DNA of 64,000 nt from Gekko japonicus (lineage: Eukaryota), in contig NW_015175364.1 in assembly GCF_001447785.1 (NCBI RefSeq), forward strand, positions 957,340-1,021,339. Reading direction: 5' to 3'. The notes beneath the pieces were generated by a model, which ran no database searches, had not been told where the DNA came from, and worked only from the letters and a program-made list of their open reading frames with translations. Shown here in pieces: positions 19,791-27,137 of the stretch; the stretch's first letter is position 1; each line of letters opens with the position of its first letter. Position numbers and translations under genes: made by a program.

Positions 19791-19967
19791 CATGGCTCCT
19801 CACCTGAAACTATCTTAATAAAGTGGGTGCCACCTAGCAATAAGAGCGCCTGTGTCACTTTCAGAATAAAAGAAGACGGACATTTGAACAAGTCCTAAAG
19901 ATAGCGGTGTCAGTCTGCAGCCAAGACCATGAACAGTCTCGTGGTACCTGAAAGACAAACTTAATCT

Positions 19968-22900
19968 CTCACGCCCAGCTCAACTGTTTAGAACAATTCG
20001 GACTTTGACAGATTTGCCACAGGGCAAACCCAATGTTAGGGAATTGGATATTGGCTGTGAGGCTTTTGCGAGCTATTTTGCAGATAAGGTTTTGTCGCTC
20101 CGCCGCGATCTCCCTGCCACAGTTGAGACAGTAAGCGAACTCAAGGCTCCATGCACGTCTTCTAGTCCAATTCTGGATTATTTCAGTCCACTCAGCCTAG
20201 AGGAAGTCGACAGATTGCTCTTGATGTGCTCTTGATGGTATGCCCAACCATGTGCAGCCTTGATCCGTGCCCTTCATGACTAATTAAAGCTGGCCGTGAG
20301 GGGTTCCGAGATGCCCTCAGGGATATTATTAAGAAGTCCCTCTCTGAGGGACTGTTCCCGGAGGCACTCAAGGAAGCAATGGTCCGTTCTCTCTTGAAAA
20401 AGCCAACTCTGGATCCGGCCAAATTGGCAAACTATCAGCCGGTTTCCAATTTGCCCTATTTGGGCAAATGAATTGAGAGGGTGGTGGTGATACAGTTGCA
20501 GAGCTTTATGGATGACACTTCCATGCTAGACTTGTTTCAGTCCAGCTTCTGCCTGGGCCAAGGGACAGAGATGGCACTGGTCGCCCTCACAGATGATGTC
20601 CGGAGGCATCTGGATCAGGGCGGGACAGCAGTGCTGTTGTTGTTGGACCTGTCGGCTGCATTCAACACAGTCGACCATCAACTACTGATCCACCGTGTCG
20701 CCAACATGGGGGTACAGGGCTTGCCTTGCAATGGCTTGTCTCATTTCTCCATGGTTGGGGACGAAGGGTGGCACTTGGGGATCAGATGTCCCGAAGGCAC
20801 CGGCTTATTTGCGGAGTGCCCCAAGGGGCAGTGCTCTCCCCGATGTTATTCAACATCTACATGCGCCCCCTTGCCCAGATTGCCCGGAGGCATGGACTTG
20901 GGTGTCACCAATATGCGGAAGACACCCAGCTGCATCTGCTGTTGGGCGGCCAGTCCAACTCTACCCCGGAAGATCTGGACTGAGTGCTGCAGGATGTGGC
21001 TGGCTAGCTTAGACTGAGTCGACTGAAACTGAATCCGACGAAGACGGAGGTCCTTTTTTAAAAAAACAACAACACATTTTTAATCGCTTTTTCTATACTA
21101 CAAACCTTCAGGGTCAGGGGAAGGCAACAACCTAAAACTACAAGTAGCAAGGATCATTAATACATAAGTTTAAAGTAGTCGATATTTCCCTATTACCCAA
21201 ATAGTAATACATGAGAGTTGATACTGTAAAAGAATAAAAGTATAAAGCAAGCAACCACAATCATACTTGGCTCATGTGTGTGCTTCTTAGCTTTGAGATT
21301 ATTAGTTAATAATAAACAGACTGTCAAAGTTACTCTATTTTGCTTATTTCTTTCCTCTCCACTTCTTATCAAAATCCAGTCTAACTTTTAAGGGCTTAGG
21401 AGCAGCAGCCCCTAATTCTGCTTCAAAATCTGAGGATTCTGCCGAGCTGCTTGAGGTATTGACAGAGCTTTCCCCTTTTTACCTTCTTCTTTTTCTGCAT
21501 ATTTGTTATCCTCTGCTTTCTCAGATCCATCTCTCGCTTTCTGTTGTTGCTCCAGGAATATTTTCACTTTAAGAACACAGTCAATCTTTTCTTTTTCCCA
21601 TTGTAGTTGAAGATAAGGCCTTCCGGTATTATCCATCTGTATGGAGTGGTATGATTTTGCAAAAACTGCTAAGTCTCTGTACTGTCTCCTTCTTTTCCTG
21701 GAACGTCTTTTAAAACTTTGATTTGTTCTCCTTTGATTTTCAAGACAATTCCATTTGTCGCTTTCAAAATTGAGTCTTTTGTTGACCTTTTTGAGAATTT
21801 CGCATATACTTCCTCGGGTAGCTTTTTTAAAAATATAAATTCTGGATATGTACGATACACCAGATCAATATTGCTTTGTATCACTTCCGCTATTAAGCCT
21901 ATCACAGGAGCCAGCTCTTCACTTAAAATCTCTTTCAGGTTCTCTCCTTTCTGCTCCGGAATGTTTTGAAATCTCAGGACATATGCTGATTTTTCCATTT
22001 GAAGAAGTAGTAATAGTTGACTCTCAGAGATTTTTTCTTTTTCCACTACCTCCAGTCTTTGTCCATACTCTTTGAACTTAACGTCAACTTTTTTCAGCTT
22101 CTTGGCTAACGTCTCTGTTCTTGCTGAAGTTTCTTTAAGCTCCTTTTACAGTATACCAAACTTGTCATTAAGGTTGGTTGTCTGGTCCAGTAGAGGGCGC
22201 AAAGCTGCAGAAATCATTTTAGGAAAGTCTATGGTTTAGTGACCAGAGACAATGTGCTGGCAGTTCCTGTTGTAAATTTCGATTTTGCTGCCATTCTTTC
22301 TGCTCGCTGCAACATTGTTTACAGTCAGCTAAAAGTTTTAAGAAGTCTTTGAAGGTCTGTTAATTAAACGCTTTCTTGCTACTCAGTCAAAATCCGCTCC
22401 CTTCAAGTCGCCTTCTCGGTCCCCACTTTTAACTCAGTCTTTTCAGGATTAGGGATTCCCCTCCCCCTTCCACTTGTTTGGGGCTTTGGTGCAGCTTTAC
22501 TATCAGCGTTTAGGTGGTTGTTCGCTAAATCATGGGTTCACTCCCATTTTTACTTGTGTTTGTTTAGAGTGTAGAGAAGATTGTTTCTTTCGAATCACTT
22601 GTGTGCTCGGACCGGTATGTGCCTCTAGATGCCATTGCTGGCTCCATGCCACGAGGACCTATCAGGGCAAAAAGGAGCCTCAATCCCTTAGCTTCTGCCT
22701 CGGGAGAGGCACCTCACGTGCCCCTGGCTGCGCCCCCCTGCAAGGGGTTGTGGGGGTCCAAGACCAACTCAGACCACTCCCCATCGGCACGTTTGCAGGC
22801 CGCTCACATCAGAGCTGCGATGGAGCGCACCTGCCTGCAAGTCGCCAAAACCCGGAAGTCTGGAGGTCCTGTGCCTGAGTCAGAGTGGACCGGGGGTAGG

Positions 22901-23018
22901 AATCCCATTGCCAGCCTTCGATGGGGCATCACTGGTCCCAGCGCTGAGGGTCAGGAGTCTGGGAGTGCTCCTGGATACCGCCTTAATGATGGAGGCCCAG
23001 GTAGCAGCTACTGTCAAG
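19968..23018 (+). mobile_element. Decayed L2 LINE ORF2, interrupted at 21054/22862 by a half-L1
   Basis: RT motifs LLLLDLSAAFNTVDH, GVPQGAVLSPMLFNIY and YAEDTQL with frameshifts. KTEVL|CLS continues across the insertion, colinear with the L2 at 58750-60027. Confidence 0.9.
21055..22861 (-). mobile_element. ORF1-only L1-derived element (HAL1-like), apparently full length
   Basis: 9-bp TSD ggaggtcct (21046-21054 and 22862-22870); 5' end AGACTTCCGG; disrupted ORF1 ~22315-21412 with coiled coil and LRFQNIPE...IDLVYR...IKVLKDVP; ~350 bp 3' UTR, ATTAAA and short A-tail; no ORF2. Confidence 0.8.
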
Positions 23019-23785
23019 CTAGGTTCCCTTTAAGCTGCACCAAGCTGTGCTAGCGCACCGATTTCCCCTGGCCAGAGTAGCAATTTTTACTACAGCGCAG
23101 GGGCGAGAGGTTCCCTTTCCAATGGCCATGCAGCATGGATCCATTTGCTCAGGCAGCACAGAAAAACAGCAGTATGCTTTGTGTTTCCTAATCTGGGCTG
23201 GCCCCGCCTCCCCTCAGCTGCAGCTTGCTTATCCTGTGAAAGGGGGCGCTGCTGCCCTCCCTGGCAGTCCTCTGCCTTGTGCTCCTGGAGATACCCTGGC
23301 CCAGAAGGAGGACTGCTCTGTTGCCCAGCTTCTGCCCTTCCTGAGGTGAACTGCCTGGTTGTTTGTTTTGTCTTGGCGTGGGGAGCCGGGCTCAGCAGCC
23401 TGCTAGAGGCGATCTGGTGGCTTCTGGTGCTTTGCGAAGTGACTCGCTGTGCACATAAGCCTGCAAAGTTAGTTGGAAAAGGTGCAGGGGGGAGCCGGGC
23501 TCAGCAGCCTGCTAGAGATGATCTGGTGGCTTCTGGTGCTTTGTGAAGTGACTCTCTGTGCCCTTAAGTCTGAGTGGTTAAGTAATACAAATATGTTTCA
23601 TATAAATATAAATAAGTTTAATATAAATATGTGGCTCGTAATACAAATGATAATTGTTTGTATGTTTGTACACTTTAGTAATTTTTTTTAATGTCGGCCC
23701 GCTCACAGTTTTAACGCTAGGACCACTTTTGGCTCACAGGGTAAAATTTCTGCTCACGAGACTGCACACCTTAAAGGGAACATTG
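23019..23785. mobile_element. Non-autonomous hAT-like DNA transposon with an internal ~110-bp-period duplication
   Basis: TIRs ctaggttccctttaag and cttaaagggaacattg (14/16 match); direct repeat gggagccgggctcagcagcc... at 23381 and ~23490. Confidence 0.7.
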
Positions 23786-25038: not shown

Positions 25039-25541
25039 AGTTGGTCATCTGTGAACTAGAAGGTAATAGGTTTATCTTGAGCAAGAGAAGTCTGACAGGG
25101 TAAACTGAGCTAGTTTGGAAATATGTAATTAAACCAAAGGGTACATAGTAATGGCTTCTGAGTACTACAATGAAGCTATAATGTTTCAGGGTCCAATGAT
25201 AAAGACTACCCAAATGAGGAATGTTTTAAAACAATTGTAATATGAACAGCAACTAAAACATCTTGTACACCAATCTCTGAGACTTGTTCTAGAATTAAGG
25301 CCATGAGACCTTAAGGGCAAGCCCACAAATCACCCATTACTTTAACACTGTAACATAAGGGAAAATCTCTACATTGTAAACTATATTACTGCAGAAGCAA
25401 TGGACTTTCAGGCAATAAAGGCACACCCAATATTTAGGAATAACACTGCATATATACAAGAGAAAATAAAGCAGTTTGGTTTTTGGTTTGGTTAAAGAGA
25501 CCCCCAAAGGTTGTCACCTATAAAACTTGATACATGCTCAC

Positions 25542-25774
25542 CTTCCTTTTTCTCGGAATGGGCTCATCAAAAAGGAGACTGCTAGTTTCAGCTTCATCAA
25601 AGCCATCATCAGTTTGAGAAGGCAATCGGAAGGGTTTGAAGCTATCGGCAGAGAGAGGTGGAGATGGGGTGGATGGATTGGACTGGTCACTGGGAGCGCT
25701 CCAACTCCAGTAGCCGCTGCTGCTGGTACTCGAAGGCACAAATCCTCCTTCTTTCCAAGAGCCATTTAAGGATT
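25542..25774 (-). CDS. ZNF704: ZNF704 coding exon (Ser/Pro-rich, ends in basic PRKRK)
   Basis: ctctag|AA TCC...AAG|gtgag; 233 bp; [39 protein letters not shown]...[12 protein letters not shown]. Confidence 0.97.
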
Positions 25775-27137
25775 CTAGAGATTAGTGAGAGTTGGAAAAT
25801 ATATAAATATACAGAATTTGAACAGTACTGGATAAAGCCAACAGATCTTAGTGGCCATGTTTATTTTAGCAAGAAAGCCTGGGCCATAAAGTTATCATAT
25901 GTAAAGTGGTCCTAGATTGACTCAGGAAGGTGGCTTTAACTGAAAGGTTGAACTCATGTAACATAGATTTTAAAATTTATCTCCTGTAAATCTTGACTTC
26001 TGGTACAAGAACGTTTTCTGGAATGTTGCTAGCAGAGTGCAGAGCTTATGAAATCTCCCTTGCATCACAAGCACAGATGGGGCCAACTTAAAAACATATA
26101 CTAACAGTGGGGGAAAATACGCTTAACTAAGAATGAAACCGAGGAGACGGCCACAGAAAATTCTTAGAAAGTTCTAAGAAATGTAAAAACTATGAAAGCA
26201 CAGATAGAAGCATAAGTGCAACCCTGAGCAGAGTAAACCATCTTGAACTGAACTGAGAGTGTCATGGCTATATATAGATCACTTTAGCAGGTAGTAAACT
26301 ACAAAAATATTTAGGTCATGTCCAAAACGAAGATATTAGAAGAAATTCTGCAATTCTTCTGTTTTGTTGTGTAGGCCTTTAATTTTTAAAACCTATTCCT
26401 ATATGCTAGTCCCATACCAAATGTATGTAGCAGGCAGGGTAACAACTTCTAAGCTGAACACAGTTTAAAAATGCTGTTTGTTCACAGGGAAACAAAAAAC
26501 ACCCCTTTATTAAAAGATAATTTTCAGACACACTTAGAGCATTTCTGTTTTCTCTGAATCTGCAGCTTCCTTTTACTTTTCCAAAAAAAAAAAAAATCAA
26601 TCAGGAACAAAATTTTGAAGCAAGAAGAAGGCTGATAGAATGAGGTTGAGTGCGAAGTAAAAAAGAGAGAAGCGCACTTGTTTTCCTACCACACCGTTTT
26701 AAAATCTCTGTCTTATTCAAATAAGGTTACCATCACAATCTTAATCATCCAGCCATGGCATGATGTGCTTCCCCCCCCCTTACATCTTTTTAGGAGCTAA
26801 TAAAATAGGTGTTTTAAAAAAAAAACAAAACAACTGTTTAGTCAGCACTTATTAAATATCCCTACCTAAAGTTGTTTTTAGGAACTGAAAAGCAGTCCAT
26901 GTTCTGTGTGTAACTGCAATGTGTATCACAATTTTATTTATTTTATTTTTATTTTTCCAATTTATACCCCGCCCTACCCCACCGAAGCAGGCTCAGCAAC
27001 AGTTGGCATGATGTTTTTTCTAGGTTGATCCTGGCACCAGAAAAGATCTTTCTCTAGGTGGGGATGTTCAGTGTGTGCAGCATAAATCATACCAGTCTTT
27101 GAGATCTGTGTGCAAGTGGTTTAAAATGCATGCTCAC

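What the first reader, a model, noticed from the sequence alone, without database searches (positions are those of the whole stretch)
21046..22870. Complete ORF1-only 'half-L1' retroelement with a clean TSD
Seen: a 1.8-kb minus-strand insert bounded by a 9-bp TSD (ggaggtcct) splits an L2 RT frame at KTEVL|CLS. It starts GACTTCCGG, has a ~550-bp 5' UTR and a ~300-codon decayed ORF1 (coiled coil plus RRM/CTD), then goes straight into ~350 bp of UTR, ATTAAA and an A-tail with no ORF2. Known: GACTTCCGG-like starts are common in non-mammalian L1s, and ORF1-only HAL1 elements that borrow ORF2 in trans are described mainly from mammals. Inference: a non-autonomous squamate HAL1-like family, possibly uncatalogued, rather than an ordinary L1 fragment, which would be 5'-truncated and ORF2-derived.
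Basis: partly seen in the sequence, partly recalled or inferred. Interest (0 to 1): 0.72.

Follow-up and report, generated by a model that had tools for sequence, protein, structure and literature searches.

The report
Gecko half-L1 retrotransposon lineage
This is a dead 1.8-kb copy of a lizard (likely gecko) jumping gene that carries only LINE-1's RNA-packaging gene and no copying enzyme; it belongs to an old, many-branched family that kept this one protein under selection and likely borrows the enzyme from complete LINE-1s, a way of life described mainly in mammals.

Summary
Confirmed. A 1,807-bp minus-strand element with a 9-bp TSD splits an L2-type RT frame. It is one copy of a real family. 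Of 30 fetched copies, 21 share both ends, and 20 of those 21 have their own TSD (13 with 1-2 mismatches). The single ORF is L1 ORF1p (profile hit to human ORF1p, E 1e-10; top fold matches agree). No endonuclease follows it: 0 of 60 motif-sampled loci, and none among 50 divergent relatives. The family is one twig of a deep ORF1-only clade (ORF1 42-85% identical, SH-aLRT 99) that holds no ORF2-bearing member. ORF1 was conserved in the source elements (dN/dS 0.06-0.24; shared variants threefold depleted at 0-fold sites, p=0.0006) but decays neutrally after insertion, so ORF1p is likely needed in cis. L1 ORF2p acting in trans is inferred; neither a parent nor a partner L1 was found. No reptile HAL1 turned up in the held literature; Repbase, Dfam and the primary HAL1 paper were not available. 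The scan noted such elements before in this genome (e1-9097231, e1-9553428) and in other taxa. New member of a known kind.

The parts
22862..22870 (.). Target-site duplication, copy at the element's 5' side (9 bp)
   Evidence: paralogous L2 reads skip 21045->22862 with 9 shared letters
22316..22861 (-). 5' UTR, 546 bp, starting GACTTCCGG; likely internal promoter (first 350 bp of the family majority: 60% GC, CpG obs/exp 0.98)
   Evidence: the motif matches the lizard clade-1 L1 5' end in PMC5381506; promoter activity inferred
21344..22315 (-). Decayed L1-type ORF1 (coiled coil, RRM, CTD, acidic tail, basic end); frameshifted and with stops in this copy
   Evidence: tblastn with the open copy P0001, 75% identity; profile vs PDB; fold search
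21085..21343 (-). 3' UTR, AT-rich, with the lineage-wide terminal motifs TGATCCTTG (21156-21148), a C-rich tract (21124-21111) and TGTAG repeats; no ORF2 remnant
21055..21084 (-). Poly(A) signal ATTAAA (AATAAA in most copies), T-rich spacer and short A-tail
21046..21054 (.). Target-site duplication, copy at the element's 3' side
19933..21045 (+). Host: decayed L2-type LINE RT region left of the insertion (outer limit approximate)
   Evidence: Pfam RVT_1 E 2.7e-8; frames; clade from recalled motifs
22871..23035 (+). Host: continuation of the same L2-type RT frame right of the insertion (outer limit approximate)

Best explanation
This is a dead genomic copy of an ORF1-only, L1-derived retrotransposon (HAL1-like) from an old, diversified lizard lineage that likely makes its own ORF1p and likely borrows ORF2p from autonomous L1s. 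Shown: unit structure, multi-copy family, L1 ORF1p identity, absence of ORF2, purifying selection on ORF1 in source elements, neutral decay after insertion. Inferred mechanism: a source copy is transcribed from its CpG-rich 5' UTR and polyadenylated at its own AATAAA about 270 nt after ORF1. ORF1p made from that RNA coats it in cis, which makes it a competitive template. An L1 ORF2p captured in trans through the poly(A) tail nicks A-rich DNA and copies it by target-primed reverse transcription, leaving 10-20 bp TSDs. Its short length lets many copies arrive full-length with the promoter and seed new subfamilies.
For: Family: 21 of 30 fetched copies are full length with identical ends, and 20 of 21 have a TSD (7 exact, 13 with 1-2 mismatches). 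An exact-match scan of 204 loci gave 43 TSDs of 10-20 bp, median 15, median element 1,800 bp; A fills 55% of the first four TSD positions vs 30% at positions 7-10. ORF1 identity: the open copy P0001 is 29-42% identical (E to 1e-36) to ORF1s that precede EN-RT-CCHC ORF2s in the same genome; profile A1 hits human L1 ORF1p at E 1.1e-10; the top 10 Foldseek hits are L1 ORF1p. No ORF2: 29 of 29 3'-UTR hits run upstream into ORF1; no endonuclease in 0 of 60 motif-sampled loci, 0 of 30 basal-subfamily loci or the 20 loci at 49-62% identity. Tree: ORF1-only rows form one side of a branch (support 88; 99); none of the ORF2-bearing ORF1s lies inside (19 rows; 22 further rows). Selection: dN/dS 0.06-0.24 in 20 of 28 subfamily pairs, with dS saturated in the other 8. 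Within the focal family, private changes are neutral (18.6 vs 20.1 per 1,000, p=0.62) while shared changes are depleted at 0-fold sites (27/457 vs 15/83, p=0.0006).
Against: No parent or partner L1 was found. ORF2-bearing ORF1s are only 29-42% identical, and no sampled autonomous 3' UTR matches the focal 3' UTR (best E 0.029, 17 nt), so the trans step is inferred. The A preference at the target is modest, and the -1/-2 pyrimidine bias is weak (56%). A related 1.5-kb family with homologous UTRs has no ORF in its majority (longest frame 103 aa) yet spread, so ORF1p in cis is not indispensable for every derivative. Copy-vs-majority pN/pS was 0.44-0.56 before variants were split into private and shared. 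Subfamily majorities rest on 3-10 copies. Trees are quick searches without bootstrap, and the ORF1-only rows were mostly found by similarity to each other. The fold model used an alignment that included autonomous ORF1s (mean pLDDT 68, pTM 0.35).
Confidence: 0.85

Rival explanations
1. Repeated origin: each subfamily is a separate ORF2-deletion product of its own autonomous L1. The parents are extinct, collapsed in the assembly or unsampled, and the purifying selection happened in those parents.
For: Mammalian HAL1s arose several times (PMC5753468, passage), and rat RNHAL1 is 98% identical to its active L1 (PMC2241872, passage). Young autonomous L1s here contain N-gaps, so the assembly can hide them. 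Only the best 40-150 candidates are scored per search.
Against: No ORF2-bearing ORF1 lies inside the clade, and 0 of 60 loci chosen only by an ORF1 17-mer have an endonuclease. Selection is visible inside one ORF2-less subfamily on variants shared among its copies. The subfamilies share ORF1-to-tail 3' UTR motifs.
Confidence: 0.1
2. An ORF1-only element mobilised by a non-L1 LINE (RTE, L2 or CR1) that recognises its conserved 3' terminal motifs.
For: The last ~100 nt carry motifs conserved across subfamilies with saturated dS, which suggests a 3' recognition signal. No L1 3' UTR match was found.
Against: A poly(A) signal plus A-tail, 10-20 bp TSDs with A-rich 5' ends, an L1 5' motif and an L1 ORF1p all point to L1. 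That L2/CR1/RTE tails are short tandem repeats is recalled, not tested. The conserved motifs may be polyadenylation elements.
Confidence: 0.04
3. A one-off premature-polyadenylation or truncation product of an ordinary L1.
For: Lizard L1 ORFs carry many cryptic poly(A) signals (PMC5381506, passage).
Against: Dozens of copies have the same two ends and their own TSDs; there are 47 and 307 exact motif hits with zero control hits; no ORF2-bearing close relative was found.
Confidence: 0.01

Closest known systems
HAL1 (half-L1) of mammals (Smit 1999; Bao & Jurka 2010, not held; seen through passages of PMC5753468, PMC5786205, PMC3627910, PMC5322556, PMC2241872, PMC8535693)
   Same: L1-derived; ORF1p only; keeps the 5' promoter region; poly(A) tail and TSDs; multi-copy; ORF1 coding capacity kept over long periods (guinea pig 29-44 Myr per PMC3627910); dependence on ORF2p in trans.
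   Different: Squamate host and likely independent origin (nearest named database relatives are Gekko japonicus and snake proteins). Only 1.8 kb. No close autonomous parent (at most 42% ORF1 identity, vs 98% nucleotide identity for rat RNHAL1). Radiated into at least 8 subfamilies, with dS saturated between some, and appears to have produced a non-coding derivative.
Lizard clade-1 L1 (Anolis; Boissinot & Sookdeo 2016, PMC5381506; passages and supplement excerpts seen)
   Same: 5' terminus GACTTCCGG (GACTTCCGGT-N12-ATGGCG in older subfamilies); ORF1 about 1 kb; ~300-bp AT-rich 3' UTR with C- and T-rich tracts and AATAAA.
   Different: No ORF2; 5' UTR 0.55 kb vs about 1.3 kb; total 1.8 vs 6.4 kb. 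The paper has no mention of HAL1 or non-autonomous families (0 occurrences).
HeT-A and Ag-Sponge (ORF1-present non-autonomous LINEs; PMC5786205, passage)
   Same: Protein-coding non-autonomous LINE with ORF1 only.
   Different: They derive from the Jockey and CR1 clades, not L1.

Membership tests
HAL1-type (ORF1-only L1 derivative) | Encodes an L1 ORF1p | tested here: met
   Single copies give no Pfam L1 hit; in alignment A1, 11 of 31 members hit PF02994 but P0001 did not
HAL1-type (ORF1-only L1 derivative) | No ORF2 in the unit | tested here: met
   0 of 60, 0 of 30, 29 of 29 3' ends lead into ORF1; no ORF2 remnant in the family majority, best E 0.13
HAL1-type (ORF1-only L1 derivative) | Poly(A) end and TSDs | tested here: met
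HAL1-type (ORF1-only L1 derivative) | Amplified as a unit (multi-copy family with shared ends) | tested here: met
   21 of 30 full length; 47 and 307 motif hits
HAL1-type (ORF1-only L1 derivative) | ORF1 coding capacity maintained in source elements | tested here: met
HAL1-type (ORF1-only L1 derivative) | Traceable to a parental L1 by loss of ORF2, with the L1 3' end retained | tested here: inconclusive
   no parent among the ORF2-bearing ORF1s sampled; no 3' UTR match
HAL1-type (ORF1-only L1 derivative) | Mobilised by L1 ORF2p in trans; internal promoter active | not testable with these tools
   inferred from TSD, tail and 5' UTR features
Named mammalian HAL1 families (HAL1, HAL1b, RNHAL1) | Common descent with the mammalian families | not tested
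   no mammalian HAL1 sequence was available; nearest named relatives are squamate
Autonomous L1 | ORF2 with EN, RT and CCHC | tested here: not met
   positive control: the same queries find an endonuclease after 22 of 30 other ORF1s
Already catalogued Repbase/Dfam family | Matches an existing consensus | not testable with these tools
   neither library is held

The most novel reading that the evidence does not exclude
An ancient, single-origin, parent-free HAL1 clade in geckos. It lost ORF2 once, outlived its parental L1, and diversified into many co-existing subfamilies with ORF1p under purifying selection to saturated dS. It reached on the order of 10^4 copies, possibly more ORF1 copies than the autonomous L1s it parasitises, and produced a second-tier non-coding parasite. 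No such lineage turned up for reptiles in the literature searched.
Probability: 0.5. Interest if true: 0.62.

Novelty: new member of a known kind. Interest (0 to 1): 0.5.

Why it matters
It extends the half-L1 strategy to squamates and gives a natural experiment on what ORF1p does. ORF1p evolved for a long time uncoupled from any cis ORF2p and stayed under strong purifying selection, while the neutral decay of inserted copies serves as an internal control. With a non-coding derivative beside it, the question 'is cis ORF1p required or only advantageous for trans-mobilisation?' becomes testable in one genome. In practice, these elements escape Pfam and ORF2-based L1 surveys and contaminate gene models: one RefSeq ATP6V1C1 model ends in 112 residues of a copy.

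Tried and rejected
Pfam on single copies: no L1 ORF1 family. PDB phmmer with P0001: nothing under E 0.1. Word-index protein searches returned only the ATP6V1C1 fusion; the full HMMER scan gave 552 hits at E<=0.001. The ESM Atlas gave no answer. Programmed frameshift at the T/A tract inside ORF1: rejected, because lengths scatter over all three phases and L004, L013 and L014 read through it in frame. The acidic/basic C-terminal tail as a HAL1-specific novelty: rejected, because autonomous ORF1s here have it too. Apparent ORF1+RT cases: L092 (element with its own TSD inside an L1 ORF2) and L284 (a 5'-truncated L1 nested in the ORF1 tail) are nestings; L238, L246, L257 and L272 are flanking LINEs. 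Five ORF1s without EN outside the clade look like broken or interrupted L1s or end at a locus edge. Search for the partner L1 by the 5' motif (40 of 107 sites fetched), by PF02994 and by P0008: autonomous L1s were found, none with matching UTRs. Expression: no RNA holder listed; 3 RNA runs of one study, read at 3-12%, give low depth on both strands with 3, 2 and 0 reads at 99% or more identity, so no conclusion. The GT..AG-like joint in RNA also stands in DNA contigs and is most likely uninterrupted L2 paralogues, not splicing; an empty allele cannot be told from a paralogue. A first TSD script was too strict (7 hits) and was replaced. No complex prediction was run, since a homotrimer would pass by likeness to solved ORF1p. 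Literature: 9 searches listed no paper describing a reptile HAL1; subscription papers, Repbase Reports and bioRxiv supplements were not visible.

Full report
Observation. The insert spans 21055-22861 on the minus strand between two copies of GGAGGTCCT (21046-21054, 22862-22870). Without it, the flanks form one RT frame reading ...KTEVL|CLS.... The left flank hits Pfam RVT_1; the L2 label rests on recalled motifs. Contigs and reads, most likely from other L2 copies, pass straight from 21045 to 22862 with 8-9 shared letters, as a 9-bp duplication predicts. Inside lie a 546-bp 5' UTR starting GACTTCCGG, a broken ORF at 22315-21344, about 290 bp of 3' UTR, ATTAAA at 21084-21079 and a short A-tail.

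It is a family. A DNA search of the own genome gave 2,914 first-look candidates, of which 40 were scored and 30 loci fetched. Twenty-one start and end where the window copy does. Twenty of these have their own TSD: 7 exact, 8 with one mismatch, and 5 with two mismatches, a few of them weak. Of the 30 copies, 29 lie 3.8-8.4% from their majority at non-CpG sites, the window copy at 6.2%; L027 is an outlier at 15%. All 29 new loci retrieved with the 3' UTR run upstream into ORF1; many overlap the first set. A focal 18-mer has 47 exact hits and a lineage-wide 17-mer 307, controls 0. With overlapping 15-mers present in 26 of 29 sampled copies, the focal subfamily has about 50 copies spanning that site. 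Three or four further lineage fragments in roughly 370 kb of unselected flank suggest on the order of 10^4 fragments genome-wide, a very rough figure.

The protein is L1 ORF1p. One copy keeps an open 348-codon frame (P0001). Alone it has no Pfam or PDB sequence match. It is, however, 29-42% identical (E to 1e-36) to ORF1s that precede EN-RT-CCHC ORF2s in the same genome. A profile of 31 natural frames (20 ORF1-only, 11 autonomous) hits human ORF1p structures at E 1e-10. The model (pLDDT 68, pTM 0.35) shows a long helix, an RRM and a CTD, and its ten best fold matches are all L1 ORF1p.

ORF2 is absent across a deep clade. An ORF1 search returned 150 scored hits at 55-85% identity, plus the query itself. 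The 30 best and 20 picked from the divergent end are all ORF1-only. They have short 3' UTRs ending in shared motifs, a poly(A) signal and often a TSD; one of the 20 is interrupted and one sits inside an L1 ORF2. A basal subfamily at about 42% identity gave 0 of 30 with ORF2, two of them with limited downstream sequence. Sixty of the 307 motif sites, taken in list order while skipping those already seen, gave 0 endonucleases within 2.2 kb. The five other ORF2-like hits there are flanking or nested LINEs. As a positive control, a query from an unnamed database protein (P0008) retrieved 30 ORF1s, of which 22 have an endonuclease and are 30-37% identical to P0001. In trees, the ORF1-only rows form one side of a branch: 64 vs 19 rows, support 88; 17 vs 12, support 99; a 21-row clade, support 99, with no ORF2-bearing row inside (the long row P0014 left out). 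These are quick SH-aLRT trees rooted at the midpoint. They do not rule out one origin, but do not prove it either.

ORF1 was selected in the source elements. Majorities of eight subfamilies (3-10 copies each) give dN/dS 0.06-0.24 in 20 of 28 pairs, upper bootstrap limits at most 0.35, and saturated dS in the other 8. Copy-vs-majority ratios were also below 1 (0.44-0.56 for the focal and B groups), which at first looked non-neutral. Splitting variants in 28 focal copies resolved this (L027 dropped as an outlier, L030 as a near-twin of L024). Private changes occur equally at 0-fold and 4-fold sites (18.6 vs 20.1 per 1,000, p=0.62). Variants shared by three or more copies are depleted at 0-fold sites (27/457 vs 15/83, p=0.0006; 21/346 vs 7/40, p=0.017 with stricter CpG exclusion). 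This is the pattern expected if only copies with a working ORF1 became sources and inserted copies then decayed freely.

Mechanism. Shown: structure, family, protein identity, no ORF2, selection. Inferred: transcription from the CpG-rich 5' UTR, whose terminus matches the lizard clade-1 L1 consensus in PMC5381506; cis coating by ORF1p; trans use of L1 ORF2p. The integration signature fits L1: 43 exact TSDs of 10-20 bp in 204 scanned loci, A-rich at their start (55% vs 30%), though with only a weak pyrimidine bias before the nick. Autonomous L1s with the same GACTTCCGG start and 14-18 bp TSDs exist in the genome and are candidate donors. None of the sampled L1s shares the UTRs; the UTR matches seen in those loci appear to be nested ORF1-only copies. 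Against a strict cis requirement, a 1.5-kb family with homologous UTRs has no ORF in its majority; five of its eight aligned loci lie 3-6% from the majority, and three aligned poorly.

Distribution. The only named relatives among the ten best database hits are two Gekko japonicus and two snake proteins. The three named ones and P0007 fall outside the clade, and one unnamed Logan protein falls inside. A G. japonicus gene model ends in 112 residues identical to locus L016, so the host is likely this species. Runs under a second species label cover all 30 bins of the region at 90% or more identity, a weak hint that the family is not species-specific.

Comparison with what is known. The element meets every testable feature of HAL1 as described in passages of PMC5753468, PMC5786205, PMC3627910, PMC5322556, PMC8535693 and PMC2241872, all of which place HAL1 in mammals or name no host outside them. 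The primary paper was not held. PMC5381506 (passages and supplement excerpts) and PMC5203782 (find only) do not mention HAL1; PMC4494074 cites it only in the references. Nine searches listed no reptile HAL1 paper; Repbase, Dfam and subscription papers could not be checked. It differs from rat RNHAL1 in having no close parent, and in its depth of radiation. The scan's own notes list ORF1-only candidates elsewhere in this genome and 79 findings in at least 19 genomes. These are unchecked AI notes, not support, but they suggest the architecture is common.

Verdict. A real, HAL1-like non-autonomous L1 derivative; new member of a known kind. Interest 0.5. The most novel reading not excluded is a single-origin, parent-free, highly abundant gecko clade with a second-tier non-coding parasite (probability 0.5, interest 0.62).

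Noticed in passing
L016 (G000:C1710) and protein P0002: The RefSeq/UniRef model 'V-type proton ATPase subunit C 1 [Gekko japonicus]' ends in 112 residues identical to a frame of a family copy, starting right after an AG: exonisation or gene-model artefact.
   Followed up: partly
L160, L165, L167, L169, L177 (also L162, L166, L179): A ~1.5-kb family with TSDs and UTRs homologous to the ORF1-only clade but no ORF in its majority; ends in a CCCC/GGGG hairpin-like motif before the A-tail. Candidate non-coding second-tier derivative.
   Followed up: partly
L181:130-1520 (oriented): A 1.39-kb TSD-flanked element joining the 5' end of an autonomous L1 to the 3' part of ORF2 (CCHC): internally deleted, bipartite L1; copy number not checked.
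   Followed up: no
L123, L131, L136, L138, L323, L330, L333, L336: ORF1-only copies are frequent in autonomous L1 loci: 11 clusters in 313 kb vs about 3-4 extra in ~370 kb of other flanks, in both orientations. Possible preference or TE-dense neighbourhoods.
   Followed up: partly
window 21817-21833 and homologous sites: A T/A homopolymer tract between the RRM halves is hypermutable; most copies are frameshifted there.
   Followed up: yes
G000 proteins P0006, P0007: Two G. japonicus proteins named 'apolipoprotein A-IV-like' and a snake 'myosin-6-like' are L1 ORF1p homologues: mis-annotation.
   Followed up: partly
   Followed up: no
window 25518-25781, minus strand: An 87-codon frame with a Ser/Pro-rich and KRK-containing stretch that looks like a host exon; no Pfam hit.
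   Followed up: partly
window 23380-23546: A ~109-bp tandem duplication right of the L2 fragment.
   Followed up: no
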